DNA from: Takakia lepidozioides
Lineage: Eukaryota; Plantae; Bryophyta
DNA length: 64,000 bases
Direction: 5' to 3'
Assembly (NCBI GenBank): GCA_030704615.1
Contig: CM060731.1
Coordinates: 87,110,001-87,174,000, forward strand
The notes below the pieces were generated by a model. That model worked only from the letters and a program-made list of their open reading frames with translations. It ran no database searches and was not told the origin of the DNA. Shown here one piece after another: positions 4,761-63,320 of the stretch. The first letter of the stretch is position 1. Each line of letters starts with the position of its first letter. The translations under genes and the position numbers were made by a program.

Positions 4761-7700
4761 ATGCAGAACATGTTTGCATGCCTAACAGGAAAGGTGGACG
4801 TGCTGGAGGGATCGCAGGAATCCGAAGAGCCGCAGGAAGAGTCCGAGGAGCTAGCTGCAGCACGTACACCCACCCGATCCCCGAGCGCGGGTATTCCTGC
4901 CGGGCCTAGCCCTGTGCGATTCAAAGACGCGTCTTCGAAGGGCAAGTTCAAAGCCCCAGAGATCGACTCGCGTTCTTCGGTCATGGAGAATCGCCAGCAG
5001 GGGTCGGGCCCTTCTCCAGCAAAGTCGAAGAAGAAGCAGCCCGTCCCTCTACTGGCTTCTGAACCGGCTCAGGCCGATTCACCCCCCCCAACGCGAATGA
5101 AGCAGCAGGGTAGAAGACAGATTCAATTGCAGCAGACACCTTCACCTGCAAGGATGAGGAAGCAGAAGGCAATCAGGGCGACGGGCGAACAATCTCCCGC
5201 AAAACCGCTTCCACGAGCTGAAGCTCAGTTCCTGGAGGATTTCCCGCCTGCAGATGTTGGGGCCGACTCTGCTGCAGCGAAGGCAATGGGATCGACCGTT
5301 GATCTCGATTTGGTACCGGAGGAGGGTGCTGCCGCTCAACGTTCGCAGCAAGACCTCACCACCGATGAGCAAGCAGGCCCGGAGGAGGCCTCTGCAATGG
5401 CAGAATTGCCCGCAGACAGGCCCCAGAGTGCAGCTCCAGTTGAGGATGCTCCAGCTGCTCAGCCACTACCGGCACCTACAGACATGTCTCCGGAGGATTT
5501 CAAAAGTGCAGCGGATAAAATGTTGGAGGAGACACACAGTAGCATTGGCAGAGTTTCTGGGCAGCAGGGTATTCCAGCGGACTCTTCGAATCCCACTCTG
5601 TCGCATGGTCTCCCTTCCCATCGTCAGGCAGGCCCTTCCCGGAGATGTGGATAAGCTCAAGTTCGCATTTCGAGAAGGGTACCGTCTGGGATCGGCAGCG
5701 TTTTACGTTTCCATTGAGAATGAGGACGGCGAAACTCGTGGACCCACTGCCGATGAATTGTCAACGTGGGATACCCACTGGCACACTCGCAACCACGAAT
5801 TCGAGGCGACGCTGAAGGGTGATCCAGACTTCGGCCATATGTCGGGTAAAATGTTCTTTGTGTGGGACGGGAATCACCGACTTCTCGCCTGGTGGGAGTA
5901 CATCAAGCAGAACCATGCCAAGCACATTGGCTGGCATTACATGGTGGAGTGTGTCATCCTCAAGGTGAAGGCGGCAGACTCCTCCCTGCTCAAGAATGCC
6001 ATGGCGGACCTCAACTCGTAAGATACTCATACCCTCCTAGCACGTTCGAAATGCGGTGCCGCATTTCGGTTTCCATTCTGGTTTGTTTCCGTGCTTCCGT
6101 GTACTGAACTGGAGAGTGTGCCTTGCAGGGTCACTGAGAATGCGTACGTGCATACCCACATGGCACATATGCTGTACAGGGTGAGGAAAACTGGTCTCAC
6201 TGATCCGCAGATGTTTGCGGAAATGCTGGAGCCCGAGCTCATTCAGAAAGCCGTTGCAAAAACAGACCGGACATGGTATCGTCTCACTATGGATGGAATG
6301 GTGGAGGTGATATACGAAGTAAGTCGTCCCAATTTCCCTCTGCTCATCCTTCCCCAATTTTCAGTAATGTTTCCACATGAATCGAATGTAACGCTTCTGC
6401 ATGTTTTTGTTGGCAGTCAAACATCAAGCTGGATTTGGCCCATGCCAAACGCTTCTTCATGGAAAGTGAGGGGCAGGTCAAAACGTTGCAGTCATTGACT
6501 GAGCACTTGAAGGAAGCCGGTGTCAAGTCCAGAACCAAATACGTCAAAGCTTGTGAAGCTGGTGGCAATTGCAGATCCGGCACTTGGAAAGGACTTCATC
6601 CCCGAGATTGCAAAACACTATTCTCGGGCCATGCAGCCGACCATGCAATTGGAGAAACTGCATCACCTCTCAACGGCATGTGTGGAGGCGAAAGAGAAGG
6701 TGAGGTTTCAATGCACTGAAGTTCCTTCCTAGCAATAGCCACTCTCTTCCAGCTCCTGACATTGGATCGGAAATGGCAGACACGGTGGCTGTCGATCTGG
6801 AATGCATCCGAGAGCATAAGGACAATGTGGTCTTTTCCACTCGAAGTTTCCGACCCTGCAGTGGATGTGTGGCTCAACCGTATGACTTGGTGGTTCCAGG
6901 TAATTCAAGGTACTTCCCCAGATTTGCTTTTCTGAAATGAATTCCCTGAACTGCTACGTGACAATGCATTTGGGAATCGCAGGTAATGTCGAATGCGAAG
7001 GAGCAAGTCGTAATGCACACAAATTCGTTCGGCTTGTACGTCAAATGGGATGGAACACAGACATTGGAAGACTACGTGACACGTTTCAGATGTGCGTACA
7101 AGGACAACCTTTTCGCCAGAGAGCTAGACAGCAAGAAGGAGCGTGGAGTTTACACATCAGGAGGGAGCGGGGAAAGCTGCAATGCGAATTGTTTACAGGT
7201 GAAGCACAGCTGCCCTTGTATGCGAAGCCTGGTTACGAGGTTTGTCTCGGAAATGCGGCACCGCATTCGCATTTTATGTTTTCGGTGCACTCTGCGAGTA
7301 GGTTGGTCTCAACTTTTGCTCACGCATGCTGACTGCCTTGCAGGTATATGAAATACGTGCTCCTTCAGACAGGGGCCCCTGGCTCAAGAGCCCCGTTCTT
7401 CATGGCTTGGACCGTGGCGGGCCCAAGCTGTGTCTACACACCCGAGATGCAGAAACAATGGCATCCCGCGCATCTCGTTGGATGCCCGTGGTACCTGGAC
7501 ATGTCTGGCGGTATTGTTGACGAGTCTGAGAAAGATCTGCACGCCTTGGCAGAAGAGAAGAGAAAGGAAAGACGTGTCCCTGCTGGGCCAAAGTCGGCAA
7601 GGAATCTGCTGCTCTGGAAGAATCCAGAAAGGCAGCTGAGATGGCACAAAAGACGGTGGATGCAGCTGTGCAGGCCCAACAGAAGGGGTCGAAGAAGAGG

Positions 7701-9700
7701 ACTCGCCAGCAAGGAGCAGCTGTTGTGACACCCGCCAAAACGAAGAAGCAGAAACAGCCTGTTCAGGAAGAGGGTGAGGAAGAGGACTCCGATGGAGACT
7801 TTGCAACCAGCCCACCCCCCCAAACGCAGGCTGCCTCCCCTGTGCCCACCGTTGTCACGAGAGGCACGAGAACTGGCTCGGCAAAGAAGGCACTCTTCAA
7901 CCCCCCAGGGGGGCACCCTTTCGAGCCGGTGGAAAATGAAGAGGCCGAAAGTGGCTCCCGAAACAGTAGTCCAGTGTGTAAATGAGAGTTTCTTGGCGGC
8001 TTTGGATGGACGGGCAGCCAAGTTGGCATACATGAAGACCATGGAGGGTCTGAAGGGCAGAGCACTGAAGAAGGCGACTGCCGAAGAGCCTTCCGACACC
8101 CCAGGATTTCAGAATATGGTCTCGTTCTTTGAGAGGGTGTGTGCAGACAAGGATTGTAGGAGGGGCGGAAATGCCACGAGTGGTCTTGCGATATGATCAT
8201 CTTGGATATTCCGGACGGGAGCCTGTGGAAGGACTGCAAGCTTTGCCATCTTGGAACAGGTACTCGGAGGACTTTGGAAGAAAGGATTCGGGCTTGCCCG
8301 CATGGTGTTGGACGACAGAGGCTGTGTGGTTGTCCTGGCGAGCAGAGGAAAAAACACTCAGACAGGAATTGCGAAGTGGACCCGCAAGAGCGCCGTCCCG
8401 ATTCTGAAAAAGAAGTGGACGTGCATCAACACACTGGGCCTTCGGTCGGAAGGGAAGAAGGTGATTACGACACTGGCACTCGTCCATTCATTTGCTTGGG
8501 TGTTTTCAAATGCGGTGCCGCATTCGGTTTCTAATCGTTTTCCCCCTGTGTATGCAGACGAAGCAGTTCGATGCATACTGCTTTGTGAAGGAGAACTCCA
8601 CCTTTGCTTTCCGGAAGGAGGGAGGAAAGGTTGACCCGAACTGCGACCCACTCGATTACGACGTTCTGTTCAACAACGTTCCCAAGGAACTTCTCCCTCA
8701 TAGCCTCACTTCAACGGAACCCCTGCGGTACTCACGGACTCGGAGCCCTGCCTTCATTCAGACAATTTGGAGACATGCACAGACGTGGAGGGCACAGTGC
8801 TCGACCTCATCTGTGGGACAGGTATGCAGAATCTTGATCTATGCTGTTCTGCAAATTCTCGTTAGGATGTAGTTCGCAACATCTGAAGCGCCATGTGGTA
8901 ATGTGTGGATGGCATTGTAACGGTGCCTCAATGTGGGCTGGGCGGTTTTCCGACCGGCACCTCTTTGCCTACGAGGAGGATTCATCCGTGTGGGGATCCC
9001 ATCTGGAAGGGCTGCAACGGAATGTTAAGGCTCCGACAGAGCGGAAGTCTCCTCGGATTCGTCGGAGTCCGAGGAAGACACAGTGGACATTGATGCGGAG
9101 GAGAACCCGGAATACGAGTGAGTGCAAACATTGTAAGTTTGCAAGCCTTCTGGGTCATTTATGTCAAACGAATTTCCCGACTGTGGTTCTCATTAGTCTC
9201 GTTGATGATTGTCATGTGCAGGATTGCAGGGTCCGGGTCGAAACATGTAGGGCCTACACTTCCTGCCAGGAAGAATGTCCCGTTCTTTGCGAGGGCCGAC
9301 TTCATGACGAGCCGGTGAGGGACTACTCCCTTCCTAGTTATGCAGCTAAACTCGCAAATACAGCGATTAGAAGAAGTGAGAATCCCAGTAAAGTAGAGCA
9401 GATTTTGGAGAGGGCTAGGGAGGACAGAAGGATAAGGAAAGAGTTGGCAGCAGCTCAGACAGGTAGACGGGTACGAAAGTACATATGTGATTCAGCGGAT
9501 GAGAGCGACGCAGACAGGGAGGAAGACGACCCAACGGAGGTGAGATGGACAGTTCCGCAAGGGAAGATGGGATTTTCGAAAGCCTGGCCAACGAGCAGTC
9601 CGCTGGAGATGAGAAAGGCACTGAGGGGGTGGAGGCGGAGCAGGACAGTCTAGAACAGGATGAGGATTCGGATGATTTTCAGATTATAGAATTTAATGAA
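4761..9700 (+). CDS. Family A accessory gene: low-complexity N-terminus + ParB-like domain + beta-class N6A/N4C methyltransferase-like domain (multi-exon, frameshifted in this assembly)
   Basis: FFVWDGNHRLLAW (~5850-5895), MIILDIPDG (8193), YSRTRSPAFIQT...VLDLICGTG|ASMWAG..DRHLFAYEED (8730-8980). GT-AG introns e.g. 6018-6128, 6319-6416, 7199-7343, 8461-8557. Start and end approximate. Confidence 0.8.
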
Positions 9701-9821: not shown

Positions 9822-10582
9822 AGAAATGGGGCACCGCATTTCCAAAATTTTGGCAACTCTAAGAACCTCTTTTGGACATGCGACACCCGCATTTCCAAAC
9901 AGGGGAGGGACTAAATTTCCATTTCAATGTTGGCATAGTAAAAAGTAATCGGCCGATTGGAAATGCGGTGCCGCATTTCCAAAATTTCCTTTGTCCACAC
10001 GCCAGTTTTGGCCTCTCCCGCTCATTGCATGGATGCCACCACGCTTACAGAGGTCGAACAAGGAGGTCGAACAAGGGGTCGAGATGGCGGAATTGAAAAT
10101 GCGTTGCCAGCATTTCATATTGGGGATGGTCGTTGTTCTAACTGCAGGCCCATCACCAAAAATTGGCACCGCATTCCATTGTAAAAAAAAAGTCGATGAC
10201 GGACATGGAAATGCGGCGCCGCATTTCCAGAACGGACATCGCAATTTGTCCATTTGCAGACCCTCTCCGGAAATGCGGTAACGCATTCCATCGCGCTGGT
10301 CGGAAATTCACACTTTTCGAAGTGTTGGACGGAAATGCGGCACCGCATTCCCTTGTCCAAAAAGAAGTTTCCATTGCCAAGCTGGAAATGCGTCGCCGCA
10401 TTTGCAATGCCAACCTCGTTGTCTGTCCATTTATAGACCCGTGTTGGTATTTTGTGTACCTGGACGGAAATGATGCACCGCATTTCCTTGTCCCACATGG
10501 AATGCGGTGGCGCATTTCATTGTCCCACATGGAAATGCGGTGGCGCATTCATTGTCCACAGGAAATGCGGTGCCGCATTTCA
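9822..10582. repeat. Distal array of the family A palindrome
   Basis: About 11 copies of GGAAATGCGGNNCCGCATTTC variants, e.g. at 9959, 10207, 10331 and 10561. Confidence 0.9.
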
Positions 10583-10837
10583 ATGTCCGACATGGCGTTA
10601 CTCTTGTATATTCTTGACACATGACTCACATACCGGTTACTCTGCTATATTCATCCGGACAGACACATTGTAGAAATGAGACATCAAATTGTAAACAGTG
10701 GGCCAATTCCGACAGTTATTCAACAGATTGAAACACAATCATACAGAAGTGAGGTACGATGGGTTTATTGATCGGACACGATGTCTCACATTTACCAACT
10801 GCAGACAAACTAAGCCCTTCCTCCTTCTACATGGGCT

Positions 10838-11731: not shown

Positions 11732-11794
11732 GTGGCAGATCTCAAACTATAACTTCTTGATGAGAAAGATGTATGGGTTCATCCACCTCCGTCG

Positions 11795-29672: not shown

Positions 29673-29901
29673 CCCTGACCGGGGGCTGCTATTTCATGAG
29701 CGGCATGAGCATGAGCGGAAAAAAAAAAAGCATGAGCAGACCATTGTGAGTCCACGGAAATAGGGTTAGGAGGCACGGAAATAGGGTCATGTGAAGTTGG
29801 AATGTGGCACCAGTGGACTTGAAATGCAACATTTTATTGCAAATTTTGTGGCAAGCCACGTCTATACAAGTGTGTTCTAACTGTCATAGCCGGAATGGGC
29901 A

Positions 29902-32900
29902 CTACTCTCCTACACCCTCCGAGGAACTTGCCCCACCTTCTTCCTCATCCCCCTCATCCCCCTCATCCTCCGAGCTCTGTGATGCATCAGTTCCACTATG
30001 CCTCTCAAAAATCCCGTCCTCTCCTTGGGGGACTGTCCACCTCACCTCCTGGGAATCTTTTGCGTCTTCTCCCCCACTTTCCTCAGCAGAATCCAACACA
30101 AATCTACGAGCTCGACGGGCTCTAATAGCTGCTGCCTCCTCCCTCATCTTCATTTTCTTGAGGCTTGCCTCGTCTAAAATCTGCTGTACACGACTACGTT
30201 CGGAACACCTCCTAATGGACACCGAAGCAAGCCGGGCAGCATAAGTAGGAAGGATGTACTCCCTTTCTGGACTAGGCATGAAATCCCCCCTGGCAAAAAA
30301 AAGGCACGTTCCTCCTGCCCATGAACTCCGGTGTAGACGTCCCTCCGGCAGTACTTGGCATCCTACAGTAAGAACAAATCCACTTGAAGAATGTCAATAC
30401 CAGCACAACCAGAAAGGGTTTTCAATGAAATAAGAGAGCGGAGGGAGGTGCCTCACAAAATCTGGAGGCAACTTACAATGCCACCACTCACTCGTAAACC
30501 GGGGGCTCCTCGGCCTCGATCCCAACTTCCTCCCCCTGCTCCTTCTCGGATTTTTCCTCATCCTCCGAGGATGCCTCTTCCTCTTCGGCAGACGTTCAGC
30601 CGCTGCAAGTTCCGAGTTGTGGAGGGCAGTATCTGGCTCGAAGGCGAACACATGCCTGTCGGACAACGTCCCTGCCCACATTGAAGCACCTGAGGAACAA
30701 AGCGGGCGGTTAATAGCTTGCGGCATGCAATTGCAATGGGGCCAGGGGACAAACTGAGCACGTGAAGGCTTACCCGTGCCGCATGTGAGGTCCAGAATCC
30801 GCCCTTGGACATCCGAGCACGTCTCCATGAGGGTTTGGATGAAAGCAGGGCTCCGGGTCCGGCTGTACCGCCACGGTTTGCCTGTCTTTGTGTCCTTCGG
30901 CATACTAGAGTGGGGCACATAGTTGTAGAGGACATCGTAGGTTACAGGGTCCACAGCGGCATCAACAAGACGACCGTCGTTGCGGAATTTGAACGTAGAC
31001 CCTCTCTTCACAAAGCAATATGCCTCAAACACCAATGTCTGCACATCCAACAAAGAAGGGATCAATTCCAGGGTCTACTTAACATACACCACAATATGAA
31101 GTGAATGCAATAGATTGATAACTTACACTTTGGCCCTCTGTTCGCAACCCCTGCGTACTGATGCAGAACCATTTTCTGAGGAGGACCGGGGTGACACTTT
31201 TCGGTGTCCACCTTGCCACCGCATTCTCTGTGGTCTTCCCTCTCGTGGCAAGGACAACCACACATCCACCATCATCCAGAAGCATCCCCGCCAGCCCAAA
31301 CCCGGCTTTCCAGTAGTCCTCAGTAAACCTGTTCCAGGTGGGCACACCATCCAGGCCCTCCAGCAGCTCCCCATCTGGAATGTCGAGGAGAATCATGTCG
31401 CAAGCTCTCTCCACCTCAACCCCCCCCGAGTGCTCTTGCAATTCGTGCTCACAGCCGTGAAGAATTCCATCATGGCTTCAAAACCAGGGGTGTCTTTAGG
31501 CTCTGTACCGGCAGCCCTCTTCTTGGCTTTCCCCTTCTGCTCCGCCAGAGACTTGTTGTGTGCCACCTTCTTCGCCCTGGCAGCGAGAGCGTCAAGGAAG
31601 CTCTCATTGACGCATTGGATGATGGTTGGAGGTTCTAGCTTTGGCCTGTGCGTAAACGTCACCGCCGAATACCGCCGTGTAGGCTCGCCCTCAAATGCCA
31701 ACTTCTTGGCAGAGCCAGTCCCACTCCGAACTGACTTGGGAACCCGGCGACCGGTGACTGGGTAGGAGCAACAGCAGTCGCAGGACCTTGAACAAAATCG
31801 GCGTCGGAGTCACTCTCTTGGGTCCCCTCCTGCGCCTCCTCCGATGCCCCGATGGTTTTCTTCTTTTTGGGTGTTACTGAAGTCACCTGTTTCCTTGTCC
31901 TTTTCCTTTGACCTTTACTCTTCTCATGCAATTTCTCCTGAATTCCTGCCTGAGCAAGCTCTGCCGCTTTCCTGGAGTTCGCAAGCGCTTTTGCCTCTTT
32001 TGCACCCAACGGAGGCAGCGGAGCCCGGTTTCGTCGGAATTCAGCATCCAGCTTCAATTGAAACTCGGATGGGTCGAGTGAGCCGGGCGGAAGGTCCACA
32101 TACCAAGGGCAATCACGCAAATGTTCCAGATGCCACTCCTTCACAATATCGTCAGTGTACATGGAGTCAGCCCCAGGGTTCCTCCATGCCAGGAAGAATG
32201 GTGGCTCGAAAGACAGATGACCTTTCTCCAAAAGCGAGAACTTACAGTACCTGCATTCATGAAAAACACAATGAGGTCCGAAAATGGCTAAGTCTCTGAA
32301 CGGCAATAGGGCCTACAACTGGAATATGGCGCCGAATTTCCACTTCAGGGCCACCCAGTCTAGGGACTTAGCCCGAAAATGGCTAAGTCCCTCGACGGCA
32401 ATAGGGCCTAGAACTGGAAAACGGCGCCGAATTTCCAGTTCCGGGCCAGCCAGTCTAGGGACTTAGCCCGAAAATGGCTAAGTCCCTGGACGGCAATAGG
32501 GCCTAGAACTGGAAAACGGCGCCGAATTTCCAGTTCCGGGCCAGCCACACTAGGGACTTAGGCCGAAAATGGCTAACTCCCTGAACGGCAATAGGGCCTA
32601 AAACTGGAATATGGCGCCGAATTTCCACTTCAGGGCCAGCCAGTCTAGGGACTTGGGCCGAAAATGGGTAAGTCCCTGAACGGCAATAGGGCCTGGAACT
32701 GGAAAATGGCGCCGAATTTCCAGTTCCGGGCCAGCCAGTCTAGGGACTTAGCCATTTTCGGAGCCCTGACTGGAAATTCGGCGCCATTTTCCCTAACACC
32801 ACTTGAGGCCTCTAACATCCTGCAATGCCAGGACTTGAAAGAAAGGCAGCGCGTATGTACCTGTACAGAAGGCGCATTGCTGATTTGTCCGCGTTCGGCT

Positions 32901-35900: not shown

Positions 35901-35942
35901 GCAAGACACTGGAATCTCCTGCTGGAGCTTCAGTTTGGCCAT
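29902..35942 (-). CDS. Family B accessory gene: ParB-like + beta-class amino-methyltransferase-like, multi-exon
   Basis: FYVWDGNHRLLAW (ORF 34073-35494), CDMILLDIPDG...PTWN...LLDDGGCVVV (31079-31441), RSPAFIQTLMETCSDVQGRILDLTCGTG|ASMWAG..DRHVFAFE (30640-30870). Apparent frameshifts near 31425 and 31750; start approximate. Confidence 0.82.
32277..32790. repeat. 95-bp tandem repeat inside intron 32251-32860, carrying the family B palindrome
   Basis: GGGACTT recurs at 32363, 32458, 32553, 32648 and 32743. Each unit has GGCGCCGAATTTCC and a GGGACTTAGCC/GGCTAAGTCCC hairpin. Confidence 0.93.
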
Positions 35943-36254
35943 GCGAGAGATTGGCCGTCGTCCGTAGTACAGAGCTTTCAACTTCCGCCGCGGTCTGGAT
36001 GTGAGGTCTCTCTCAGGAGAGCCACGCCCTTCAGGCGGCATAAGTCCCAGCCAAAAAGATCTCTTTTTTTGGGGTACATGCCTGGAATACCATGTTAAGC
36101 CAAGTTTAGAATGAGATTTAGGGTACGTGTCCAGGAAGCCATGCGTCGCCAGCCCAAATAATAACCGACGGCCGTCGACATTTATTGCCCAACTGCGCAA
36201 TTAAATGTCGGATGAAGCCCTCCATGTCGGATGAAAATCGACGTAAACAGTCCC

Positions 36255-37920: not shown

Positions 37921-38219
37921 GGGTAGTAATGTGAGGGCACGGTGCCGGCTTCTCCCCTTCAGCCGTCATCATCCGGACGGCCCCCCACTTTCTGACTGCA
38001 TACCGTTGGCAGTTATTGCGCAAAGACCAGGGGCCGCATTCCGGAGACAAGGTTCATTAACACTCTGACTGTGGATTTTTGAGATAGTTGGCTCCCTGGA
38101 TTTGGATCAGGCTTCGTCGCTCGGACAAATCGGCATCGCATTCATTCCCATCGCTGCACCCCCTTCTACCAGGGAGCTTCCCCGCACGCCATCCTGGCAG
38201 TCTTGTGTGCACATCTCCC

Positions 38220-41200
38220 ATGGCGGAAAACCCGAGCGCTACAGTGTACTGCCCTCCTCACGAGCATAGAGCTTCATTTCCGTGCAGAGGGGACACCTGC
38301 CGGGTGATGGAGAAATATCTGTGCGTTCGATACCACCTGAAACCGGGGTCGGTTTTTTTGGAGGAGGAAAGGAAGGACTCAAACGGCCTTGTTGTCGAGA
38401 GTATTGTTGTGCTCCACGATGATTTCGGCGATGGCAGGGAATGGCGAGTTCCACCATCGGACAGCGTCATATACAGGGCTGTTGGGGACTTCATTTGCCC
38501 GCCAAATGCACCGTCTATCCTGGCGCCTTCCACGAAACAATCCGCGAATCAGAGAGTGGGTACCTCAAAGAGAGAAGTCCGCAACGAAGTAAATCCAGAG
38601 CCGAACCCATCCATGAAGACGACCGAGAACCGGGTTGTTCACAACCTGTCCGACTCAGACGAGGTCATGGAAGTTCCGAGGTCGTCCTGGAGATCAGGCA
38701 AGTCCTCAATGGACGTCAGTGGAGGAGGGAGTCATATTCCCAGCACGAGCACCGCAGTTCGATCTATTCTAGAAATTCTGCGAGGGCTTCACCTGGAGGG
38801 ACACCGGTCGGAGCTGGCCGGGCTGGACTACAGCAAGTTCGCAATTAAATCGGTTACATGCCTTCCCGCCGACGTCGACGGTAATATCTTCTTTGAGTTC
38901 CCTCCTCGGGCGGACTACTCGAGGGCGTCCGGAATGTTGACAGATATGGATAGAAAACATGACGGTCATCCTTGGTGCGTTACCAAAACCACCAGCATGA
39001 AGATGCTTGATGGTGTGCGGGTGCGCTACGTTGTTTGTGCGGGCGCGTTGCGGTGTTTCTCCCCAACTTGCTTCCACTTTAAATCCAGAGGTCACAGGAA
39101 CGAGACCGATTGGACAGGCACAGCTCACCAACCATTTCGAGCTCAGGAGAAGGTTCCGAACTCCACATTTAAGTGTGCGCATTGCAAAGAACCACCACAC
39201 TGCATGTCTGTTTGTAATGCCAAGCAGTTCTATGTGTTGCACCGTTTCCCTGACCTCACCCGAGCTTGCATACACGTTGGTTCCCATTGTCACAAATTGG
39301 CGAGGGGGAACTCGCGGGAGGCTGCCCACGAAGCAGAGCAGCTCGTTCAGGAGGAGGTTAAGTTGAGACCGGGTGCCAAACCCAAACAGATACAGCTCCA
39401 AGCCGCCCATAAGATGGCATTGGCCAGAATTATGTCGGAAGACGGCTCCGATAGAGTTCCTCTCGACGAGAAGGAAATGGAGGCATTGCTGGAGTCGGTG
39501 TCCCACGTATGTTCACCGAATGTCCGAAACCACATTGTCTCATGCAAACAGAAAATTGGGCGTGGCTCGGATATGCACTCCATTCTGGAGGTGAAGCGAC
39601 GATGTGGATATGACTACATTCATGGAAGTAGGTTTCCAGGACAAGGGACTGAGGCAGATCGTTGTTTCGTATTCAAAATGTCCACGTGTGGACCTGGCAG
39701 TGGCGTCGAACTGGTCGACAGGATGACGAGTGGGAACTTGTCAAACAGTTGGGTCATGTTCGACCATATCAAGCGAATTACAAATCACCAGTGGGTGACA
39801 ATGGGTGCACATGTCTACGACACCCACTGCAGGATGCTAATGACAATTGCTATTTGTGAGATGAAAGGAGAGGACACACAATCGGAGATGCTTCTTTGGC
39901 AGGGAATAAACGAACAGATGGCCAAGGCGGGATTGCCCCCTCCCAATTTCCGTGGTTTCATGGCGGACAACGCACAAGCAAATTGGGCTGCCATCCGAAG
40001 GGTGTACGGGCAAGACCCCAATGTTCCCATGGAAGGCAAGGAGAGATCTTGTGGGTTCCATTTTCTGCAGAGCCTTTCGCAGTACACAACCAGGCTCGTG
40101 GCGCCAGATTTCAGAGAGGAGCACCGTTCCATGTGCCTTGCGTGGAAGCGCGCTCCCACCTTGGATGATGCAGAGACACAGTTTGCATGCATACGGGCTT
40201 GGTGGACATCGTCAGGTGCTGTAAGGAAATCAGACGAAGGAGCAATGGTCAGTTGGCTAGCATGGTGGCATTATCGTTTCCTCCAGTTCGGCGACTATAT
40301 GCGGGAGGTGAGTTGCACGAATTCGCGTCCCGTTGGATATTATTCTTGGCCATATTTGTAACTTGCTTGTAACCTCAACATGTGCTTGTGCAGGAAATGT
40401 GTCTCGACTCCGACACCGACATGCCCACGACAAACATGGCCGAATCAGTGCACTCTTCCTGGCGTGCCTCCTCTGCGGCGCATCTGGTGGACATCCTCAC
40501 TGCCACAACGGAGGACATTGTGAGGTCAATTATGCAGCAATGCAGGTACAACGAGTTCTTGAAAGGGAAACAGTGGGGCTTGGGGCCGGACAGGCAGGAA
40601 ATGCTGATGCGGACTGCCTCCAGATCGAAGAATCCTCGGAAGTGGGCGGCGGCCTTGCGAGAGGGCCTTCGGGACACGCCATTGCTGCGAAGAGGCCAAC
40701 ATTTGGAAGGAGATGTTCATACCCGTCCAGTGAGACGAAGACTTGACGAGGCACCTGGCGGAGAAGAGGATTCATGGCGAGCTGACAAGAATATTCGCAC
40801 GCTCCCTCGTGGTCCGGTGATGTTGTCCGAGGAGGTCTCGTCGAGCACCGGAAGTCCTGCACGTTCAAGATCGCCATCTCCTTTGAGCACAGGGCGCGTG
40901 CCCCGGCAACATAACGAGCCATCTGTAGTAAAGCAATACAACATTCCCATTGTGGAGACAAGAGTGTCGGAGTCACAGTGGAGAATTGCGAGGACATTGC
41001 CGGCATTTCGAGGGAAGTGTTGCGCCATCCGGGTGGATACGAGAGCACGCTGTGGTGAGATGATTCGGAGGAACCCACACGGTGCTGTACCTGCACCTTG
41101 TTTCAGCGGCAGATTTTTGACTCCCACATTTGCTCACGCCACAACGCAGACATTTTGGTTCTGTAGGCACGACATAATGACCTGTGTATTTGGCAAGCCC

Positions 41201-41812
41201 AAGTACGGGATTCAGGGAATGCCGGAGCCTCCGGGCGTCTGGCCTGTTGCACCGGGTTGCAGCCTCTCTCAGAATGAGGCGGATGCTCTATCTGCAGCAG
41301 GATTTCGAATGGTGCAACGCACAGACATCCCGGCCCACGCATTTCCGGTTCCTCAGACCCAGCCATTGCAGACTGCTCGGTCCAGTAGAGACGGATTGGA
41401 CAATTCTGCACATCCCACAATGCGATTCGGAAGAGTGAAGAGACGACACCCTCCCAACAAGTTGAATGAGACTCGGATTGCCAATGCTCTTGGGATGGCT
41501 TGCACTATTCAGAGCTCCGTGGACGTACCCCCACCCGGCCTTGGGCGTGTGTATCGGATGGCAACGGCCGGCTCGGCTGTACGCGACGATGTATACACAA
41601 TTACGATTGGAGTGGAGCCGACTTGCAACTGTACGGACTTCTCGTTGATGGAAGCAAAGAAGGGTTCGAAGTATTATCCGTGCAAGCATCTGTATTACAT
41701 TTACCTGAAGAGGTTGAGGATGAACGTGACTATTGATGACTTTATTCATGCACCGGCGTTGAGCGTGAACGAGCTGCACAAACTCCTCCTTAGGGATTCC
41801 AGAAATCATTGA
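38220..41812 (+). CDS. Intact MULE transposase, family B (GCM-like domain, DDE, SWIM), ~1168 aa, 2 exons
   Basis: Exons 38220-40307 and 40394-41812 joined in frame by a GT-AG intron. Motifs VMFDH, FMADN, CGFH, TNMAES and SWIM CNCTDF...CKH. Confidence 0.92.
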
Positions 41813-41969
41813 TGGGGCAAACGGAATCCTCCATATGGATATTTTCAAATGCATTTTGCTGTATCAGACTTTTTTTTTGCAGTGTAATGAAATGCACCCA
41901 AAACTCCTGGAATGAGGCAATATTCCATTCAAACTGAGATCCAACAGAAGCAGTTGTGGGGCCATTTCT

Positions 41970-42330
41970 GGAAAAATGGCGCCGAATTTCTCTTTTTGGG
42001 GCCGAAAACTCGCTAAGTCCCAACATGCACTGGTACCTGTGTTTGGGAAAATGGCGCCGAATTTCTCTTTTTGGGGCCGAAAACTGGCTAAGTCCCAACA
42101 TGCACTGGTACCGTGTCTGGAAAAATGGCGCCGAATTTCTCTTTTTTGGGCCGAAAACTGGCTAAGTCCGAACATGCACTGGAAAAATGGCGCCGAATTA
42201 CCTGTCATGAGGGGACCTATAGCCGTGGAATTCGGCACCATTTTTCGCCAGAGAGACCTATTGCCGCGAAATACGTCGCCGTTTTTTCAGGTTACGGACC
42301 CTATTACCGCGAAATTCGGCGCCATATTTG
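41970..42330. repeat. Family B subterminal palindrome array
   Basis: GGAAAAATGGCGCCGAATTTC variants at ~41970, 42046, 42119, 42181 and 42311. Confidence 0.85.
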
Positions 42331-43334
42331 CACATGTCGCTGGGAATTGGCATGAGCGGAAGACGAAATTTCATGAGCACAACTGTCAAAAGTGCAATTT
42401 TTCCTTCAAGGGGCCGAATAATATATTTGTTTTTCCTGACACATTGCATTAAATTATTGTTTTTTATTGTTTTTTATTTTCGAAATTTGTACTTCTGCTC
42501 ATGAAAACCGATTGTGTTACTACTCTGCTCATGCCGCTCATGCCGCTCATGCCGCTCATGCTCATGAAATAGCAAACCTCCCCTGACCCAGGCCTTGCAG
42601 GGTGTGGCCTTATGAGACGTACTTCGCCGGCTGCCAGTACACGGCAGGCTTTATGCCTTCTTTGAAATTCGGAAGTGCCGTAAAAATCTATCTCGAGTCC
42701 AATTTCCAACAGTACTTGCAAATTGGCAATAATTGTGATGCTTCACACATTCATCCACGTATGTTGTACTGCCTATCCTGTGATTTGCAGTTCGCCGTCG
42801 CTGGCGCAATGCAGTCATTTCGGCATAAAGCTTGATGTCGGCAATCATAATGTGTTGCGTACCTTCGTGCTAAGTGTCCCCTTGAGTGTCAGTGTTTGTG
42901 CTATGCTCTTCTGGCACAGCACAAACAAATTTGACTCGGGGTATCCTATTTATTGGACTCGTGGGGCCATTGTCGTCTTTCCATAATGGATGTCTTCATA
43001 TCCTTTGCAAGGTTTGCTTTTCATCCAAACACAATACGGCTTCTTGTAGCTTCTTGTCTTTGAAGACAGTTTTTCTAGTTGGTGTCTCTCAGTGTGGCTG
43101 ACTACGGAGTTCGGTGCAAACTTTCGCCGTGCATGTCATTCTTACATCCATTGCATGCATTGCCCGCAGTCTTTGGGTCAGTGCTACCCTTATTCACCTC
43201 AGTTCGTTTGGGGTGGATCCCATTTTGAGAATTACGGGCTATCAGTTCGGGGGACCCTTTGTGGATCGCAACTTTGGGTCAGTGTAGGAAACATGTAGGA
43301 GAGAGACAGACTTGCTCAATTTCATTCCAATGCA

Positions 43335-50790: not shown

Positions 50791-50885
50791 GTAGGCAAGA
50801 GTGGTTGTACTCCTCCAGATGCAGCCCTAACCACTTACATATCACTATGGCAGTAATAATTCCAATACACGTCTGGATGACCCAG

Positions 50886-51845: not shown

Positions 51846-54800
51846 ATGAAAAGAGTAGACGAAGAGGGAAACGAGGAAAGCTTGGCGATGCAAGAGTGGG
51901 ATTTTGAAGTGGAACAACAGCCCCCCATACATCCGAGAACAGGTGAGGAGGAGACTGCATCTGAGGGAGAGACGGACGCCGAAGATATTGATGCTGGCCT
52001 CATGAAGAAGCAAACAGTGGAAAAAAGGATGGGGGAGATGCTCCAAAACATGCTCAACATAGACAACAGTCCGAAGCGCAAACGGTCTCCGGCGATTGGT
52101 GAGACTTTGAGAGCAGCACAAAGAAAGGTACAAGTGTTGTTCACTGCTACATATTGATTTTGCTTCATGTTATGCTGGCCCAGTTATGCAATCTGAGGTA
52201 AGTGCAAGAAGAAACCATTATGGGGTGCCGCACAATGTTGGTGCTGGTTCGGTCATGTTGTTTCCGGTTTGCAGGTTCAATCCACCCCTAATTGTTTGAG
52301 CCCCCCGTTGTGCTTGATTTTTGATGAGAAAATCGGCAACCATCGGCCACTCTGGCAGGTTGTAAACACCCCTTATTGGAAGCTCAGACAGTGTGCGGCA
52401 ACGCACACTGTTAGAGCCCACATTTCTGCTTGTTTATTGTTGTGAAAATCGACCACCTTGGGCCCACTCTGGCAGGTTGTAAACACCCCTTATTGGAAGC
52501 TCAAACTGTGTGCAGCAACGCACACTGTTTGAGCCCCCCTTTGTGCTTGTTTTTTGATGTGAAAATCGGCCACCTTCGGCCACTCTGGCAGGTTGTAAAC
52601 ACCCCTAATTGGAAACTCAAACAGTGTGCGACAACGCACACTGTTTCAGCCCCCCTTTGTGCTTGTTTTTTGATGTGAAAATCGGCCACCTTCGGCCACT
52701 CTGGCAGGTTGTAAACACAATTGGAAGCTCAAACAGAATGCGGTAAAACACACTGTTTGAGCCCCCCGTTGTGCTTGTTTTTTTATGTGAAAATCGGCTA
52801 CCATGGGGCACTCTGGCAGGTTGTAAACACCCCTAATTGGAAGCTCAAACAGTGTGCGGCAACGCACACTGTTTCAGCCCCCCTTTGTGCTTGTTTTTTG
52901 ATGTGAAAATCGGCCACCGTGGGGATTTCGGGCAGGTTGTAAACACACCTAATTGGAAGCTCAAACAGTGTGCGTCAACGCTCACTGTTTTAGCCCTCAT
53001 TTGTGCTTGATTTTTTATGAGAAAATGGCCACCTTCAGCCACTCTGGCAGGTTGTAAACACCCCTTATTGGAAGCTCAAACAGTGTGCGGCAACGCACAC
53101 TATTTGAGCCCCCCTTTGTGCTTGTTTTTTGATGTGAAAATCGGCCACCATGGGGCACTCTGGCAGGTTGTAAACACCCCTAATTGGAAGCTCAAACAGT
53201 GTGCGGCAACGCACACTGTTTGAGCCCCCCGTTGTGCTTGTTTTATGATGTGAAAATCGGCCAATCTCCTTGCTCCCAAGTTTTTTGGCTAGTTTGCAGT
53301 GCATGCAAAAGTGTATATAAGGGAGATGAACCTTAAATGGATAGTCTCTGGCAGGTTGTAAACACACCTAATTGGAAGCTCAAGCAGTGTGCGTCAACGC
53401 ACACTGTTTGAGCCCCCCTTTGTGCTTGTTTTTTGATGTGGAAAAAGGCCTATCAAGGCCAGTATGCCTTGTTCAAATCACCCATTATTGGAAGCTGAAA
53501 CAGTGTGCGTCAACGCACACTGTTTTTGGCCCCGTCTCTGCTTGTTTTTTGATGTGAAATTGGCCCACACAGGGGCAGTATGCCATGCTCAAAATACTCA
53601 TAGTTGGAAGCACAAACCGTGTGCGGCAACGCACACTGTTTGTGGCCCCTTCACTGCCTGTTTTTTTATTTGAAAATTGGCCACTCAGGGCCAATATGCC
53701 ATGTTCAAATCACCCCTATTTGAGAGCTCAAACAGTGTGCGGCAACGCACAATATTTTTGGCCTCCTCTCTGCCTGTTTGTTTTATGTGGAAATGTGCCT
53801 CATAGGGCCAAATTGTCATGTTCAAATCAACCCTATTTGGAAGCTCAAGCAGTGTGCGGCAATGCACACTGTCTGTGCCCCACTCTCTGCCTGTTTTTTG
53901 ATTTGATAATCGGCCACTCAGGGCCAGTGTTCCATGTTCAAATCACCCATTATTGGAAGCTCAAACAGTGTGCGGAAACGCACACTGTGTTTGGCCCCCT
54001 CTCTGCTTGTTTTTTGATGTGACATTGGGCCACACAGGGCAAGTAGGCCATGCTCAAAACACCTATAGTTGGAAGCAAAAACAGTGTGCGGCAACGCACA
54101 CTGTTTTTGGCCCCCTCTCTAGTTATTTTCTGATGTGAAATTGGACCACACAGGGCCTGTCTGCCATGCTCAAAACATCATCGTTTCTTGCCTCTCTCTT
54201 ATATCAATTTGAATGAACAACCCTGCAGGAGAAGATGCAAAGGGTGGCGGATGAGAACCCTTCGGGGCAGGAGAAGGAGATCATTGTTGATGTGGACGAT
54301 GAGTTCTATGAAAGCAAAGCTGCTGAGATGCTGGGGGGTCAGAAGGTAAACTCTCAGCTTGTGGTGCAAAGTATGCTTGCCCCGGGTGGGAGGTTGAAGA
54401 TTCCCCTGTGTAGGTTGGTTTCCATGCCGGTCGTTCGTCCACCCCTAATGAAGGACATCCAGAAGCTGGAAGCCGAGTTTGTTCATGGGTATTTGGATGG
54501 ATCCGTAGTCTTTTACGTTTCTACTAGGGATTCCAGAGGCAATGAGCTCCTTGTGGATGAGTCAATCGTGGACTCTTGGGATCCCATTTAGAGACAGGTG
54601 AACGAATCCTTCAAACTTCTTCTCTCCAGGAAACCTTTGACCCAGGCATTCTTAGGGCAGATGTTTCACGTATGGGATGGCAACCACCGGTTGCTTGCAT
54701 GGATGGCTGTCATTGGGAGGCTGCACTCACAGGAGGAAGAGTGGCATTACTGTGTTCGATCAATGGTGCTGGATTGTGACGGGAACATGATGGGTCTTTT

Positions 54801-57765
54801 GACGGCAATGAATGATATGAACAGGTTGGTTTCTCACTCCACATGTTCCAGTTGTGGTTCCGTGGTTCTTTGGTTCCAGTCCTCTATTGACGGTTCTTGA
54901 ATTTCATTATGACTTTCACACATCATTCTGCAGATGGACGGAGACATCGCATGTCAAAACGAGTCTGGTTCACACACTGTACAAGATACAAAGGATCGGG
55001 CAGATGCCCTTGACCAACTTCAAGACCATCCTTTCAACAGAGACGTACAAGAAGTGCGAAAGCTCCAAGACATCAGAAACATGGTACTCGTTGACCCGTG
55101 AGGCTTTCATGGAGTATATGTACGCGGTGAGATACATCTTCCATCATCTGGCCTTTCGATATTCCTGCTTCCAGATGTTTGTTTTTGTGTGTTTCCCTTG
55201 CCCTTGGGTTGATGCAACTCTCGTGCATTCCCTTGCAGCAAGACATTGCAGATGCAGGACAACGTGACAAACTAGAATACTACAGCTCTACCCCTGAGGA
55301 GAGAAGGACAACAAAGGGGGTTGAGAGTCACATCAAGCAAGAGATGACCGCCACAAGAAGAACTATTATGAGTGCTTTTGTTAAGTAGTTGAGAATTGCC
55401 GACCCATCATTCGGACCGCAGTTTCCTCAAGAGGTGAAAAACCATTACAACAAGCCAGGCAAGCCGGAGATGGCCCAGGAGAAGTTACACAGGTTGTCTA
55501 CCGCCGTTGTGTCTTCAGAACAGAAGGTGAAGTGGCTACAGATATGGAACTCCGATCCCACTGTTAGGGATACCCACATGTTCCCCAGGCCGGAGAAAGA
55601 GAAGAAGACCCAGCGTGTCATTCCTGTCAGTGACAATATGATGGACACATGGCTTCACAAGGCCACTTACTAGAGCTAGGTATGATGTCCTTTGATGTGT
55701 CACTGTCATTTCTCTTTTCTGTCGTTCTCTTTCCATGTTACATTGGCTGTGATTGATTTCTAGCTCATTCTTGCATTCGAATTGATTTACAGTTGGAGGA
55801 AAGAGCCCAGTTTGTTCTACATACGCAGCTGGCTGACTATGGCATCACCATGACAGCACCGAAGGTCTCCTTCCAAGCATACATGCGGAAATGGAGAGCC
55901 ATAGTGTGGCAATCTTGTTTCTTCAGGGAGTTCAACAAAGAGGGTGGCATCAGTCGAACAAATGAGCTTGACCAGCAAGAGAAAGGAGAGGAAGCCTGGA
56001 AACGATGCCTTTACAGGTGCGAAATAGACTATGCTTCTTTGATTTGCAAAGACACACTCTCCTCCATCCAACCTGTTTTGTGCTGGCTCATATGAGTGTG
56101 CGGTGCCGCACACACATTTGCTCTATCATTGTGTAGTAACACCAACGTGCACACCCTGGGCCCTTCAGGCTATTTTGTGTGTGGTGGTTGCAGTGTGCGG
56201 TGTCGCATACTCTTTTTAGGGGGTCTTCGTGATGTGGTAGAAAAGCTGGGAGACAATAGTTGCATTGCATAATGAGGCTGTCTCTGTGCCTGCAGGTACA
56301 TAAAGTATGTTCTCATGGCAGAGAACTGCTTGGACAAACATCCTGATTTCGTGGACCTGTGGCTAGTTCCTGCTGACAACCAGACCATGTTTACTACGGG
56401 GATCTTGCAGGACTGGGGCCTAGACCATCTTTCTGCCTGTGGTTGGTATTTGGATTGCCCTGTTTCTGAGACCCCAGCGCAGGAGGTGTCTTTGAGGAGA
56501 GAGTATGAGCATGTGGCAGCTACCGCCGCAGCTGCCGACCTCGAGATTCATGATAGAAATTTGAGGACACTTGCAGAGAAGGAGCCTCCCGCTCAGGATA
56601 CCCCGGGTAAAGGTAGAAAGGCGAAGGGAAAGGATGTTGCTGTTGGTGTGGGGAAAGGAAGGGGTAGGGGGAAGGGAGCGCAATGGCAGGTTGTTGGGCA
56701 GGGAAGTGTTGTAGAAACTGGCCCTGCGGCGGATGTCCAGCCGACCAAAGAGACTCCACCGCATGGTAGGGGATCCGGGAGAAAGAACAAGGGGGTGGTT
56801 GATCCTACGGACCCGTACCATGCGGTGGAGCATCCCACGAGGGTCATTCGCCCTACCAGGTTGGAGATGGCCAACGTCGGGTTCCTTGCCATGATGGAGT
56901 CCAGGAAATCTGATTACAAGGGCGATCCATCACTAGTGTGGGAGAGGATTGTGGAGTTCCTCAGCACGGTGCGTGTTGTCTTTTGCTTCTTGTGTTTTGT
57001 GGGCATGGCTCGTTTCAAGCGTCTTGAGCATTTCATTGCATGCTTGTTTGCAGGCTAAAATGACCAGATCCTGGGTTGACGGGAAGGAGAAGCCATATGC
57101 AGCCGAACTCATCATCTTAGACATCCCTGATGGGTTGCCAGTCCCGGATGTCCCTCTAGCTAGTGCTTGTCCAGGTTAGAATGCTTTTGATGAGCGCTAC
57201 TGGCAGTGGGTTTTCTCCTTTTGCAATTTCTTTCTATCCGATGCAGGTGTTTTGGTGCTCATCCAGTCCATCGACCTTCGCTATCGCCGTGCACTTGCCA
57301 GCTATTTGAAAGCCTTTGGTATGAGGGTCGTGAAGACATGGAATTGTGTGAACAACATGTACCTGACGAAGGGGGATCATCCGTGAGAGATGGTAAATCT
57401 GCCTTCTTATTCCTCTTCTTGGTGGTTCTTGGATGGAGTTCCATAAGTCGCTCAACTGAATATGTAGGGGCCTGGTTTTCAAGCTTCTTAGTTCCTTGTG
57501 GATGTCCTGTTCGCAGACTCGTCTGTTTGAAGCTGTTTGTCTCGTCCGGGTTCATCCACCTACGACTCCAGCCGTCATTAGGGAGTTCGCCATCACTCAT
57601 GGGGGCAAGTTCATAGACAAGAGGACAGATCCTCCCACGGATGACATGCACCACAACTACGTGGACAACAACGTGTGCTTGCGAAGGGGGAATGGGGTTC
57701 CTTGGAGAGGGGCCAGGGAGAGGAGCCCGGCTTTCATTCAAACGATTGTGGAGTGCTGCACCTAC
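51846..57765 (+). pseudogene. Family C accessory gene (ParB-like + MTase-like), with stops, truncated before motif I
   Basis: RLKIPLCRLVSMPVVRP, FHVWDGNHRLLAW (54598-54900), LIILDIPDG (~57110), RGARERSPAFIQTIVECCT. Intron positions match A/B; first exon tentative. Confidence 0.82.
52300..54175. repeat. ~116-bp tandem array carrying the family C palindrome AAACAGTGTGCG-N4-CGCACACTGTTT
   Basis: About 15 units; unit starts at 52351, 52468, 52584, 52700, 52812, 52928, 53043 and 53159. Ends just before the acceptor at 54228. Confidence 0.95.
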
Positions 57766-57904
57766 ACACACCTGCTCACGACGTAGCCACATTCCAATGC
57801 AGGGGCTTAATATGTTGATAACGTCTAAATGGATGCAATGGATAGAAAGGATGGATACAATGGATGTAACACATCAAGTCTGCATTCCCTGGAAAAGGCT
57901 GATC

Positions 57905-58036
57905 AACCCGCAGTAATAGGTGACACCCGCGGAAATAGGCCCTGTATGCATGCTGACGTGGCGTGAGCCTATGCTGGGCTCACGGTTTCCTGGGCTCACA
58001 GGCTCAGGCCTCCGGGCTCACGGAATAGCACCCCCC
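57905..58036. repeat. Family C right TIR with GCTCAC subterminal repeats
   Basis: ...GGGCTCACGGAATAGCACCCCCC, same layout as the A/B termini. Confidence 0.8.
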
Positions 58037-61145: not shown

Positions 61146-61411
61146 TGTAAATGCAATGACAGGGTAGAGTAGTGTTCCCACACCATGTTCTATGCCCCAA
61201 GACCAAGTTCTATGTCTGGGGCAGGGATATCATTACCATAACAGGCTGTAATCAGAGCACGCGCCAGGTGCTCACTAGCACGTGAACTCCCAAAGAAGGC
61301 ACAAGTTTCTTTGCCCCTTGGATGGGAGTCACCCGATTTCGGCACTGCGTAAATACACGATTAATCCAATTTACCTCTCCCACTTTTGTAAGCTAGCATG
61401 CATTCTACACA

Positions 61412-63320
61412 GGGGAATGTTTGCGCGTGAGCCTGTGAGCGCGTGAGCCCAGCCAGGCTCACGCCACATCAGCAAGGTTTCCCATGTGCAGGACCTAATT
61501 CCGCGGATGCCACCTATTTCCGCGGAATTGTAGGCGACTACCACGCCCCAAATTTGTCAGGTTGCATTGACGCAAGGTTGATTGGAAACCGCAGTGCATT
61601 TTGCTTAGGCTTCGAATTCTGCTATAACGTGTCTTCTTTTCCAGACCCAAATCAACCTTGTGTCAACGCAAGGTTGATTTCGGTTTGCTTTCATCTGTTT
61701 CCTTCAGATCTACTTGTAAGCAATTTTCAACCTTGCGTCAACACAAGGTTGTTTCATGTACACAATATAACGTTTCTTGGTTTGAAAATTTGCTTTTGAA
61801 TGATACTTTTCCAGACTCATATCAACCTTGCGTTAACGCAAGGTTGATTGACGTTTCATTTCATCTGCACTGTTCAACCTTTCGTTGTTGACGCAAGGTT
61901 GATTCTTTATCAGAATAGACCAATTCTGTGTTTTCATTATTGGTTTGGGCTGCCAGTTTTGAAGGCTCAATCAACCTTGCGTCAACGCAAGGTTGGTTGA
62001 GGTTTTCCCTTCTGTGTACCTACTGTGTCAGTGCTGAATTTTAACCTTGAAGAAATTGGTATATTGGGTGTGATTGTCAGGTACATCTACCATGTCCTCA
62101 TTCCGGGGAAGTATCTCAGCGATGATCCGGTTTTCATTTACATTTGGGCGGACCCCTCTAAGGATAAGACAATGTACACGGCTGGGATTGCGAAGGACTG
62201 GAGCAGGGTGCACTTCAGAGACTGCGGGTGGTACCTCGACTTACCAAAACAAGACACACCATTCGAGGAGGTGGTCATGAGGAACATCAATGACAACCCA
62301 GCAGCACTGGCACCACTCAGTGACAAAGACATTCAAGAGAGAATTATTCAGTCCCCCGCCGCAAAGGAGCCGGAAAAAAGTAGCACTCCCAAGCGGAAGG
62401 GGAAGGGTGCAGGAGATGGGAAGGGGAAGGGGAAGACTGTAGCTGGGCAAGAACAGGCTGTGCAGGACACCACGGAACGTCAACCTTCTCCGACTCGGAA
62501 GGACAAGAGAACTCCGAAAACTAAAGAACAGCCTTACAAGGCCAGAGAGCACCCTTCTCGGGTTTTGGGTCAATATCAAAGTGAGGTGGTTAACGAGAGC
62601 TTCTTGGCAATGATGGAATCCAGAAAATCCACATTCAAAGGAGAGAAATTGAAGACTTGGGATGTCCTGGTTTCTTTCCTCACTAAGGTGCCCACACAAA
62701 ACTCTACTTTGAATGTTTTTTATTTCCTTATGGATTTTGATTTCTTGCTAACTGGTCTATTGTTTTGGTTTTGTGGAACAGGTCACCAAAAGGCCCGAGT
62801 GGGTGAATGGAAGCCAACAAGCGTACGCAACTGACCTGGTGGTACTGGACATTCCGGATGGTTTGTCTGTGCCGGATGTGCTCCCTTCCAATGCAACACC
62901 AACATGGAACAAGTCAGATGCCCTTTTTTGGCAGTGGGTTTTTTCTTTCAGCAACAAATTCTTGTCTGATGCAAGTGCTCTTCTTCTGTTACAGGCAAAA
63001 GACATGCTGGCAGCGGGTGAGTTTAGGGTCATCAACTAGCTCTTATGCTAGTTTCATTCGGTTGTGTTTGTGCATGTTGAAAAAACTGAATTTTTCGGGT
63101 GTGTATGCAGACTCGGGTATTCGAGGCTTTGTGCTTGGTGAGGTTGCGTAAGGACACCCTCCCTCCTAGTGTTGCGGAGTTCCAATTGAGGGACCTTGCA
63201 GCACACATCGACCCCACCTGTGAGCCTGTGGAGGACGATGTCCTGTTCAACTACGTGGACTCAGGGCGGACCTTGAAAATGACGAATGGTGTCCCGTGGA
63301 GAGGTGCTCGGGAGAAATCT
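61412..63320 (+). mobile_element. Family D deletion derivative: TIR + palindrome array + 3' exons of accessory gene
   Basis: Terminus GGGGAAT-GTTT-GCG-CGTGAGCC similar to C. Exons from 62081 encode CGWYLDLP, VNESFLAMMESRKS, LVVLDIPDG, PTWN and VPWRGAREKS; homology then stops. Confidence 0.78.
61555..62000. repeat. Family D palindrome cluster ATCAACCTTGCG-N4-CGCAAGGTTGAT
   Basis: Six copies; perfect 28-bp palindrome at 61821-61848. Confidence 0.88.

What the first reader, a model, noticed from the sequence alone, without database searches (positions are those of the whole stretch)
7199..62080. The same homologous intron carries the cognate palindrome in every family
The intron at the YR|Y junction holds one A site (7249, in intron 7199-7343), a 95-bp B array (intron 32251-32860) and two C-type sites (56096 and 56191, in intron 56017-56295). 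The D cluster lies upstream of the equivalent acceptor at 62080, though D is a deletion derivative. Other A introns also have single sites (6047, 8508), and the large C array seems intronic. Placing sites in introns spreads them through the element without disturbing coding, as known for VANC target motifs.
Basis: partly seen in the sequence, partly recalled or inferred. Interest (0 to 1): 0.75.

Follow-up and report, generated by a model that had tools for sequence, protein, structure and literature searches.

The report
Transposon tiles self-recognition sites through introns
Four related plant jumping genes each keep their own 22-letter mirror-image DNA word in or just before the same predicted mid-gene splice point, likely as a landing site for a protein they encode that is predicted to resemble the bacterial DNA clamp ParB; relatives from other samples use a different intron or none, so that particular intron is likely an inherited, convenient slot rather than a rule.

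Summary
The sites are real and family-specific. The YR|Y intron is homologous (phase 2, GT-AG) in A, B and C and holds cognate sites. Other copies place D's deletion joint near 61557 and tie the last D site to the 62080 acceptor, so the D cluster is probably intronic too; its donor was not seen. RNA-like contigs support two neighbouring A introns but none shown spans YR|Y.

"Every family" fails outside the window. Six metagenome loci with a recognisable cognate motif (two further motif families) have a short, site-free YR|Y intron; one family keeps its array in the next intron. Within the window, co-occupancy is weak against chance (p 0.03-0.12) and confounded by descent.

All families share a CG-N4-CG core with private arms. 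The host gene is predicted to be ParB-like plus a beta-class amino-methyltransferase with an altered catalytic motif, inside a Mutator-like element. A's three occupied introns give the most even spacing of 84 possible triples.

ParB cargo genes beside inverted-repeat arrays are already proposed for algal transposons, and this scan noted the system in other genomes. Binding is untested.

The parts
1..3150 (-). Family A transposase gene (Mutator-like; cut by the window start); no cognate site
   Evidence: 70% DNA identity to the B transposase; site scan
3338..4083 (.). A upstream array, 12 sites, between the divergent transposase and accessory genes
4493..9700 (+). A accessory gene (ParB-like + helical region + amino-methyltransferase-like), 9 predicted introns (intron 1 boundaries uncertain); single-base frameshifts in this copy are absent from other runs' contigs, probably assembly errors
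6047..6068 (.). A site in intron 2 (6018-6128)
6700..6982 (+). A introns 4 (6700-6779) and 5 (6900-6982), skipped GT..AG in one contig of an RNA-like run; no sites
   Evidence: run X9 record 25
7199..7343 (+). A YR|Y intron with one site at 7249-7270
8506..8527 (.). A site in intron 7 (8461-8557); core conserved in copy A2 at 23006
9822..10582 (.). A downstream array, 10 sites; one further A/B-hybrid site at 11690
29681..42580 (.). Complete family B element: terminal inverted repeats and 8-bp target-site duplication CCCTGACC
29900..36041 (-). B accessory gene, 9 predicted introns
32251..32860 (-). B YR|Y intron (610 nt) with a 95-bp array of asymmetric B sites (32278-32762) plus site 32772; unit flanks related to B's distal array
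36295..37914 (.). B upstream array, 20 sites
38088..41810 (+). B transposase gene (weak SWIM match; a homologue's neighbours are MULE transposases); no site
41967..42331 (.). B distal 75-bp array
51846..57775 (+). C accessory gene, decayed and 3'-truncated
52293..54177 (.). C 116-bp array, 15 sites, in predicted intron 1 (52128-54228)
56017..56295 (+). C YR|Y intron with sites 56094 and 56191
61411..61556 (+). D terminal segment, joined to the cluster by a deletion near 61557
61558..62080 (+). 3' part of the probable D YR|Y intron with 5 D sites (first truncated); acceptor at 62080
62081..63340 (+). D accessory gene, 3' exons only

Best explanation
Each of these Mutator-like plant transposons carries a family-specific 22-bp hyphenated palindrome (core CG-N4-CG) only in non-coding DNA, and the element's own accessory protein, predicted to be a ParB-like fold fused to a likely non-canonical DNA amino-methyltransferase, likely binds it as a dimer, as ParB binds parS, to mark and probably de-repress its own family. 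Shown: the sites, their family specificity, their exclusion from exons, and the homology of the YR|Y junction. Inferred: big arrays flank the long (5-6 kb) accessory gene, and selection keeps extra sites in one or more internal introns so that no long stretch lacks a loading point. The YR|Y intron is a near-central slot that A, B, C and D probably inherited from a common ancestor. Its content has turned over by point change (A, C) or by re-seeding from another array of the same element (B), tracking each family's specificity. The slot is not obligatory: relatives use the next intron or none. Binding, spreading and anti-silencing are all untested.
For: Cognate, not foreign, words in each intron. 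All 10 core CpGs intact in the five single A and C intronic sites. Single A and C sites share no flank with their arrays (26-31 of 70 matches), so they are not fresh copies. The B intron unit's flanks match B's distal array (0 of 1000 shuffles reach the score). The last site lies 69-86 nt before the acceptor in all four (from coordinates). A's occupied introns give the most even spacing of 84 triples; 6 of 84 tie on the largest gap. Further families show the same CG-N4-CG design with other arms: CAACTTTCG (L005, L009, L010, L011), CTATGGTCG-like (L006, L008, L015-L017), and single palindromes in L003 and L007. A homologue's model matches ParB/Noc/KorB chains best (Z 7.7-8.7; rmsd 2.7-2.8 A over 92-96 residues for the N-domain; Atlas). 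The C-terminal domain matches CcrM, M1.HpyAVI and rotifer N4CMT (best Foldseek E 9e-9; Pfam N6_N4_Mtase E 5e-5, below cut-off). Precedent: PMC5735166, PMC12477816, bioRxiv 10.1101/2025.02.11.637652 (passages).
Against: No binding data. The spacing test is post hoc and holds in A only; in B the YR|Y intron ranks 3 of 9 for centrality and gaps reach 4.1 kb. No CpG excess in exons near intronic sites (A p 0.44-0.79, B 0.66-1.0; C shows fewer CpGs, p 0.03-0.05), and the site-free transposase genes have higher CpG o/e (0.82-0.85) than the accessory genes (0.67-0.73). The helix-turn-helix match is loose (rmsd 6-10 A when included; Foldseek E >= 0.11). Folds were made on Riccia homologues, not on the window's own spliced proteins. 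B's intronic sites have one imperfect half. One relative family has no intronic site at all.
Confidence: 0.55

Rival explanations
1. One reading: the YR|Y intron has a dedicated, conserved role (for example autoregulation of splicing or of transcription between the ParB half and the methyltransferase half) and must carry the site.
For: Occupied in A, B, C and probably D; it is B's only occupied intron of 9; similar distance to the acceptor; the intron lies between the two predicted domains.
Against: 6 of 6 scorable outside loci (two motif families) lack a site there, and L005/L010 keep a 51-bp array in the next intron. Chance co-occupancy is 0.12 over the five shared introns, 0.03 with D, and the families are related. 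Caveat: the outside copies are decayed.
Confidence: 0.12
2. The palindromes are transposase sites (subterminal or internal repeats for synapsis), and the intronic ones are spill-over tolerated in non-coding DNA.
For: B's distal array lies about 250-600 bp from a terminus and shares unit flanks with the intron array. Transposases can activate cognate copies (bioRxiv 10.64898/2026.08.24.746577, search listing and abstract start only).
Against: The termini have their own short repeats. A and B share terminal repeats but differ in palindrome. The largest arrays are central. Element E's transposase region and end carry no such site. The parS-like design fits the ParB-like cargo.
Confidence: 0.13
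3. Neutral history: arrays expand and seed copies anywhere in the element, exons purge them, and shared descent alone explains the common intron; the intronic sites do nothing.
For: Exon avoidance is expected from coding constraint; B's intron array looks re-seeded; site conservation between A and A2 is only marginal (18 of 18 core positions against 11 differences in the other 76, p about 0.06 by my estimate); no CpG halo.
Against: Single sites in A and C match their own family's arms although their flanks are unrelated to the arrays and the proteins are only about 40% identical; even spacing in A.
Confidence: 0.2

Closest known systems
VANDAL/VANC anti-silencing system of Arabidopsis (PMC5735166 and PMC10398659; passages read)
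   Same: Mutator-like element, accessory gene, family-specific short motifs in tandem arrays in introns, intergenic and terminal regions.
   Different: VANC motifs are 8-9-nt words (the term 'palindrom' has 0 hits in PMC5735166); here 22-bp hyphenated palindromes and a ParB/methyltransferase-like protein. VANC binding and hypomethylation are shown by experiment; here neither is.
Plavaka PAG3 with inverted-repeat arrays in the red alga Bostrychia (bioRxiv 10.1101/2025.02.11.637652; passages; supplements closed)
   Same: Transposon accessory protein with ParB-like N-terminus, tandem arrays of inverted repeats beside the gene, proposed self-binding and self-modification.
   Different: EnSpm/CACTA element; ParB fused to a 2OG oxygenase, with the methylase in a separate gene; arrays described as adjacent to the gene, not intronic, in the passages seen.
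Sola1-1_Ec32 accessory gene of Ectocarpus (PMC12477816; passages)
   Same: ParB-like plus N4C/N6A methyltransferase fusion transcribed opposite to the transposase.
   Different: Sola element of a brown alga; no target palindromes mentioned in the main text ('palindrom' 0 hits; supplements not read).
Bacterial ParB/parS, Noc/NBS, KorB (structures matched; mechanism recalled)
   Same: Predicted N-terminal fold with conserved GxxR-type motif (G-N-H-R nearly invariant); repeated palindromic sites.
   Different: 22-bp site with a 4-bp spacer, spliced eukaryotic gene, no ParA partner seen, helix-turn-helix match inconclusive.

Membership tests
VANDAL/VANC system | Mutator-like host element | tested here: inconclusive
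   Terminal inverted repeats and 8-bp duplication, weak SWIM, homologue's Atlas neighbours are MULE but under 0.9; no Pfam MULE hit
VANDAL/VANC system | Accessory protein homologous to VANC | tested here: inconclusive
   No direct comparison with VANC sequences; both modelled domains match ParB and amino-methyltransferases instead. Not filed as VANC.
VANDAL/VANC system | Family-specific motifs in tandem arrays in introns and other non-coding regions | tested here: met
VANDAL/VANC system | Sequence-specific binding and induced hypomethylation | not testable with these tools
   Only a CpG proxy: A and B o/e 0.67-0.85 against 0.28-0.47 for two LINEs and one LTR element, but 0.81 for a second LTR element, and no local effect
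ParB/parS | ParB/Sulfiredoxin N-terminal fold | tested here: met
   Homologue P0091 model, top 13 rows are ParB-family chains, Z 6.2-8.7; Atlas structure neighbours ParB_N
ParB/parS | Helix-turn-helix recognising the palindrome | tested here: inconclusive
   Alignments extend to residue 450 but at rmsd 6-10 A
ParB/parS | CTP-dependent loading and sliding | not testable with these tools
   Only the G-N-H-R motif is seen
Beta-class N6A/N4C DNA methyltransferase | Permuted fold, motif IV before motif I | tested here: met
   (model mean pLDDT 53.7)
Beta-class N6A/N4C DNA methyltransferase | Catalytic (D/N/S)PP(Y/F/W) motif (recalled) | tested here: not met
   DIPD in A, B, C, D; DLPS/DLPT/DMPS in Riccia homologues
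Transposon-borne ParB accessory genes with inverted-repeat arrays (algal precedent) | ParB-like domain fused to a DNA-modifying domain inside a DNA transposon, with inverted-repeat arrays | tested here: met
   definition

The most novel reading that the evidence does not exclude
A eukaryotic transposon uses a true bacterial-style load-and-slide clamp: its ParB-like protein loads at parS-like CG-N4-CG palindromes that are tiled through introns at about 1.2-kb steps so that sliding covers the whole element, carrying a methyltransferase-like domain along it, while the 7-bp outer arms and the protein co-diverge into an orthogonal recognition code across non-flowering plants.
Probability: 0.2. Interest if true: 0.82.

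Novelty: new variant of a known kind. Interest (0 to 1): 0.45.

Why it matters
If the protein binds these sites, land plants hold a second, independently built self-recognition system for transposons besides VANC, made from bacterial parts. At least six natural site variants with one shared core make the protein-DNA code directly testable and might give orthogonal targeting modules.

Tried and rejected
No whole genome is held, so copy-wide enrichment could not be counted. No RNA holder was listed on record; X9 and X10 are guessed to be RNA. Their contigs shown did not span 7199-7343, and 8 joints were not shown. The word-based protein search with the ParB exon found nothing; HMMER over representatives found 641 proteins at E <= 0.001. 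Sequence searches of the PDB gave no significant hit for any of three alignments. Pfam did not name the transposase. The viral-contig pattern scan found 0. Rejected: D cluster as a native subterminal array; intronic A and C sites as recent copies of array units; a local CpG halo; active canonical methyltransferase. PMC4738411 (passages and section 8) does not describe this fusion in the parts read. Literature searches; none listed a paper on these land-plant elements or on intronic ParB-type palindromes. The library lacks most subscription papers, and the bioRxiv supplements could not be seen.

Full report
Setting. The window is a cluster of plant transposons. It holds four families of a spliced accessory gene (A 4493-9700 +, B 36041-29900 -, C 51846-57775 +, D 62081-63340 +) and a deleted A derivative (A2), three related transposase genes, two LTR retrotransposon stretches and LINE pieces. 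B is complete, with terminal inverted repeats and an 8-bp target duplication. Named homologues of the accessory protein come from the liverwort Riccia sorocarpa and the ferns Adiantum. No genome is held.

Are the sites real? A scan for 9+4+9 palindromes finds each family's word only in its own element, apart from chance-level matches. Thirty Markov simulations give at most 0.07 matches per 64 kb at three mismatches or fewer. A and B differ by one base per half-site; C and D differ at most outer positions. All share CG-N4-CG. B's intronic sites have one perfect B half and one half that is a base short.

Is the intron real and homologous? Translated alignments break at the same codon in A, B and C, and D's first exon starts at that point. 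The three introns are GT-AG and phase 2, splice to IVYR|YMKY, LLYR|YCKF and CLYR|YIKY, and contain stops if retained. One contig of an RNA-like run skips A introns 4 and 5 at GT..AG, which supports the gene model, but it ends at 7148; no joint shown covers YR|Y (8 joints not shown). Contigs from several runs lack the single-base frameshifts of the window's A copy, so these are probably assembly errors.

D. The cluster starts about 150 bp after a terminal sequence, so it could have been subterminal. Contigs with that terminus leave the window at 61556 (two records), a cluster contig begins at 61562, and an 81%-identical contig runs without gaps from 61964 to 62174 across the last site and the acceptor. 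The cluster also has an intron-like T skew (0.23, against -0.05 to 0.03 for the four intergenic arrays of A and B). So the deletion joint lies at the first, truncated site, and the cluster belongs with the acceptor. The donor was not seen, and 61850-61964 is not bridged by a listed piece.

How special is this intron? All 31 in-gene sites are in predicted introns; occupied introns are 3 of 9 in A, 1 of 9 in B, 2 of 7 in C and 1 of 3 in D (three weak matches dropped, see observation check). Exon avoidance is expected from coding constraint. The chance that A, B and C share an occupied intron is 0.12 over the five shared introns, or 0.03 with D, and the families are kin.

Outside test. A metagenome scan gave 17 loci, mostly AT-rich and decayed; 8 reach the YR|Y junction. 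Two further motif families appear: CAACTTTCG-N4-CGAAAGTTG and a CTATGGTCG-like word. In the 6 loci with a definable donor and motif, the YR|Y intron is 83-118 nt and has no cognate site (best 7-9 mismatches even with CpG decay allowed). L015-L017 are near-identical, and L012 and L014 could not be scored. L005 and L010 carry a 51-bp array in the next intron (inferred 560 and 373 nt), which is site-free in C and D and absent from A and B. The second family has sites only upstream and downstream of the gene. An earlier scan note reports a row in the first intron elsewhere (e1-10598503, unchecked). 'Every family' is therefore false as a rule. Decay could have erased single sites in those loci, although arrays in the same loci survive.

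How did the intronic sites arise? Single A and C sites share no flank with their arrays and keep all ten core CpGs. They look maintained in place. The B unit's flanks match B's distal array (0 of 1000 shuffles), which points to re-seeding within the element. In A, the three occupied introns give the most even spacing of 84 triples, with gaps of 1985, 1202, 1257 and 1316 bp, then 1129 and 1271 bp to the end. This test was chosen after seeing the data. In B the intron ranks 3 of 9 for centrality, and both transposase genes are site-free. Exons near intronic sites show no CpG excess.

The protein. A model of a Riccia homologue (61-sequence alignment, pLDDT 69) matches ParB, Noc and KorB best (Z up to 8.7), though Foldseek alone was not significant. 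The Atlas agrees and adds fungal DUF3723 clusters (0.95-0.96, family on 17% and 51% of members). The C-terminal domain matches beta-class amino-methyltransferases, but motif IV reads DIPD in all four window families, so canonical catalysis is doubtful.

Mechanism. Most likely the accessory protein binds its family's palindrome as a dimer and acts on the element's chromatin or transcription, and internal introns supply mid-element loading points. Sites, specificity and intron homology are shown; fold is predicted; binding, spreading and effect are inferred from ParB/parS (recalled) and VANC (PMC5735166, PMC10398659; passages).

Known context. ParB-methyltransferase cargo is reported for an Ectocarpus Sola element (PMC12477816; this paper came to me through the scan's earlier notes), and ParB cargo with inverted-repeat arrays for red-algal Plavaka elements. 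The scan noted the same system in other plant genomes (none by place). Six literature searches listed no paper on these land-plant elements or on intronic placement.

Verdict. Observation partly confirmed; interpretation partly supported. New variant of a known, still untested kind. Interest 0.45.

Noticed in passing
window 10700-12500 and 25300-26900: A and A2 carry a further pair of related reading frames in inverted orientation with a single A/B-hybrid palindrome between them (11690; 26351). No Pfam match.
   Followed up: no
window 12232-12961 and 47038-47773: A's right end is 94% identical to the end that follows transposase E, whose own region has no palindromes and lower CpG o/e (0.53); a contig spans the 12232 boundary.
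   Followed up: partly
window 4610-9560: About ten single-base indels of the A copy are absent from contigs of other runs, so family A is probably young, multi-copy and intact.
   Followed up: partly
window 26912-27130, 57900-58036, 61411-61556: A second terminus type with GTGAGCC-like short repeats ends A2, C and D, distinct from the CATGAG-type termini of A, B and E.
   Followed up: no
window 35864 and 62995: Predicted GC-AG introns in B (intron 1) and D; not checked with RNA.
   Followed up: no
L003:217 and L007:388: Single CG-GATC-CG palindromes with further new arms upstream of the ParB exon.
   Followed up: partly
P0093 (homologue): Language-model features link the plant protein to fungal DUF3723 clusters; a paper search for DUF3723 with ParB listed none.
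   Followed up: partly
window 8509, run X10 record 4: An RNA-like contig matches from inside the intron-7 palindrome onward and is unlike the window for 528 letters before it, a break at the palindrome like D's joint at its first site.
   Followed up: no
window 61622-61680 and 61976-62034: Summed contig depth peaks at D sites, hundreds of times the neighbouring bins, suggesting many D-type arrays elsewhere in the genome.
   Followed up: no
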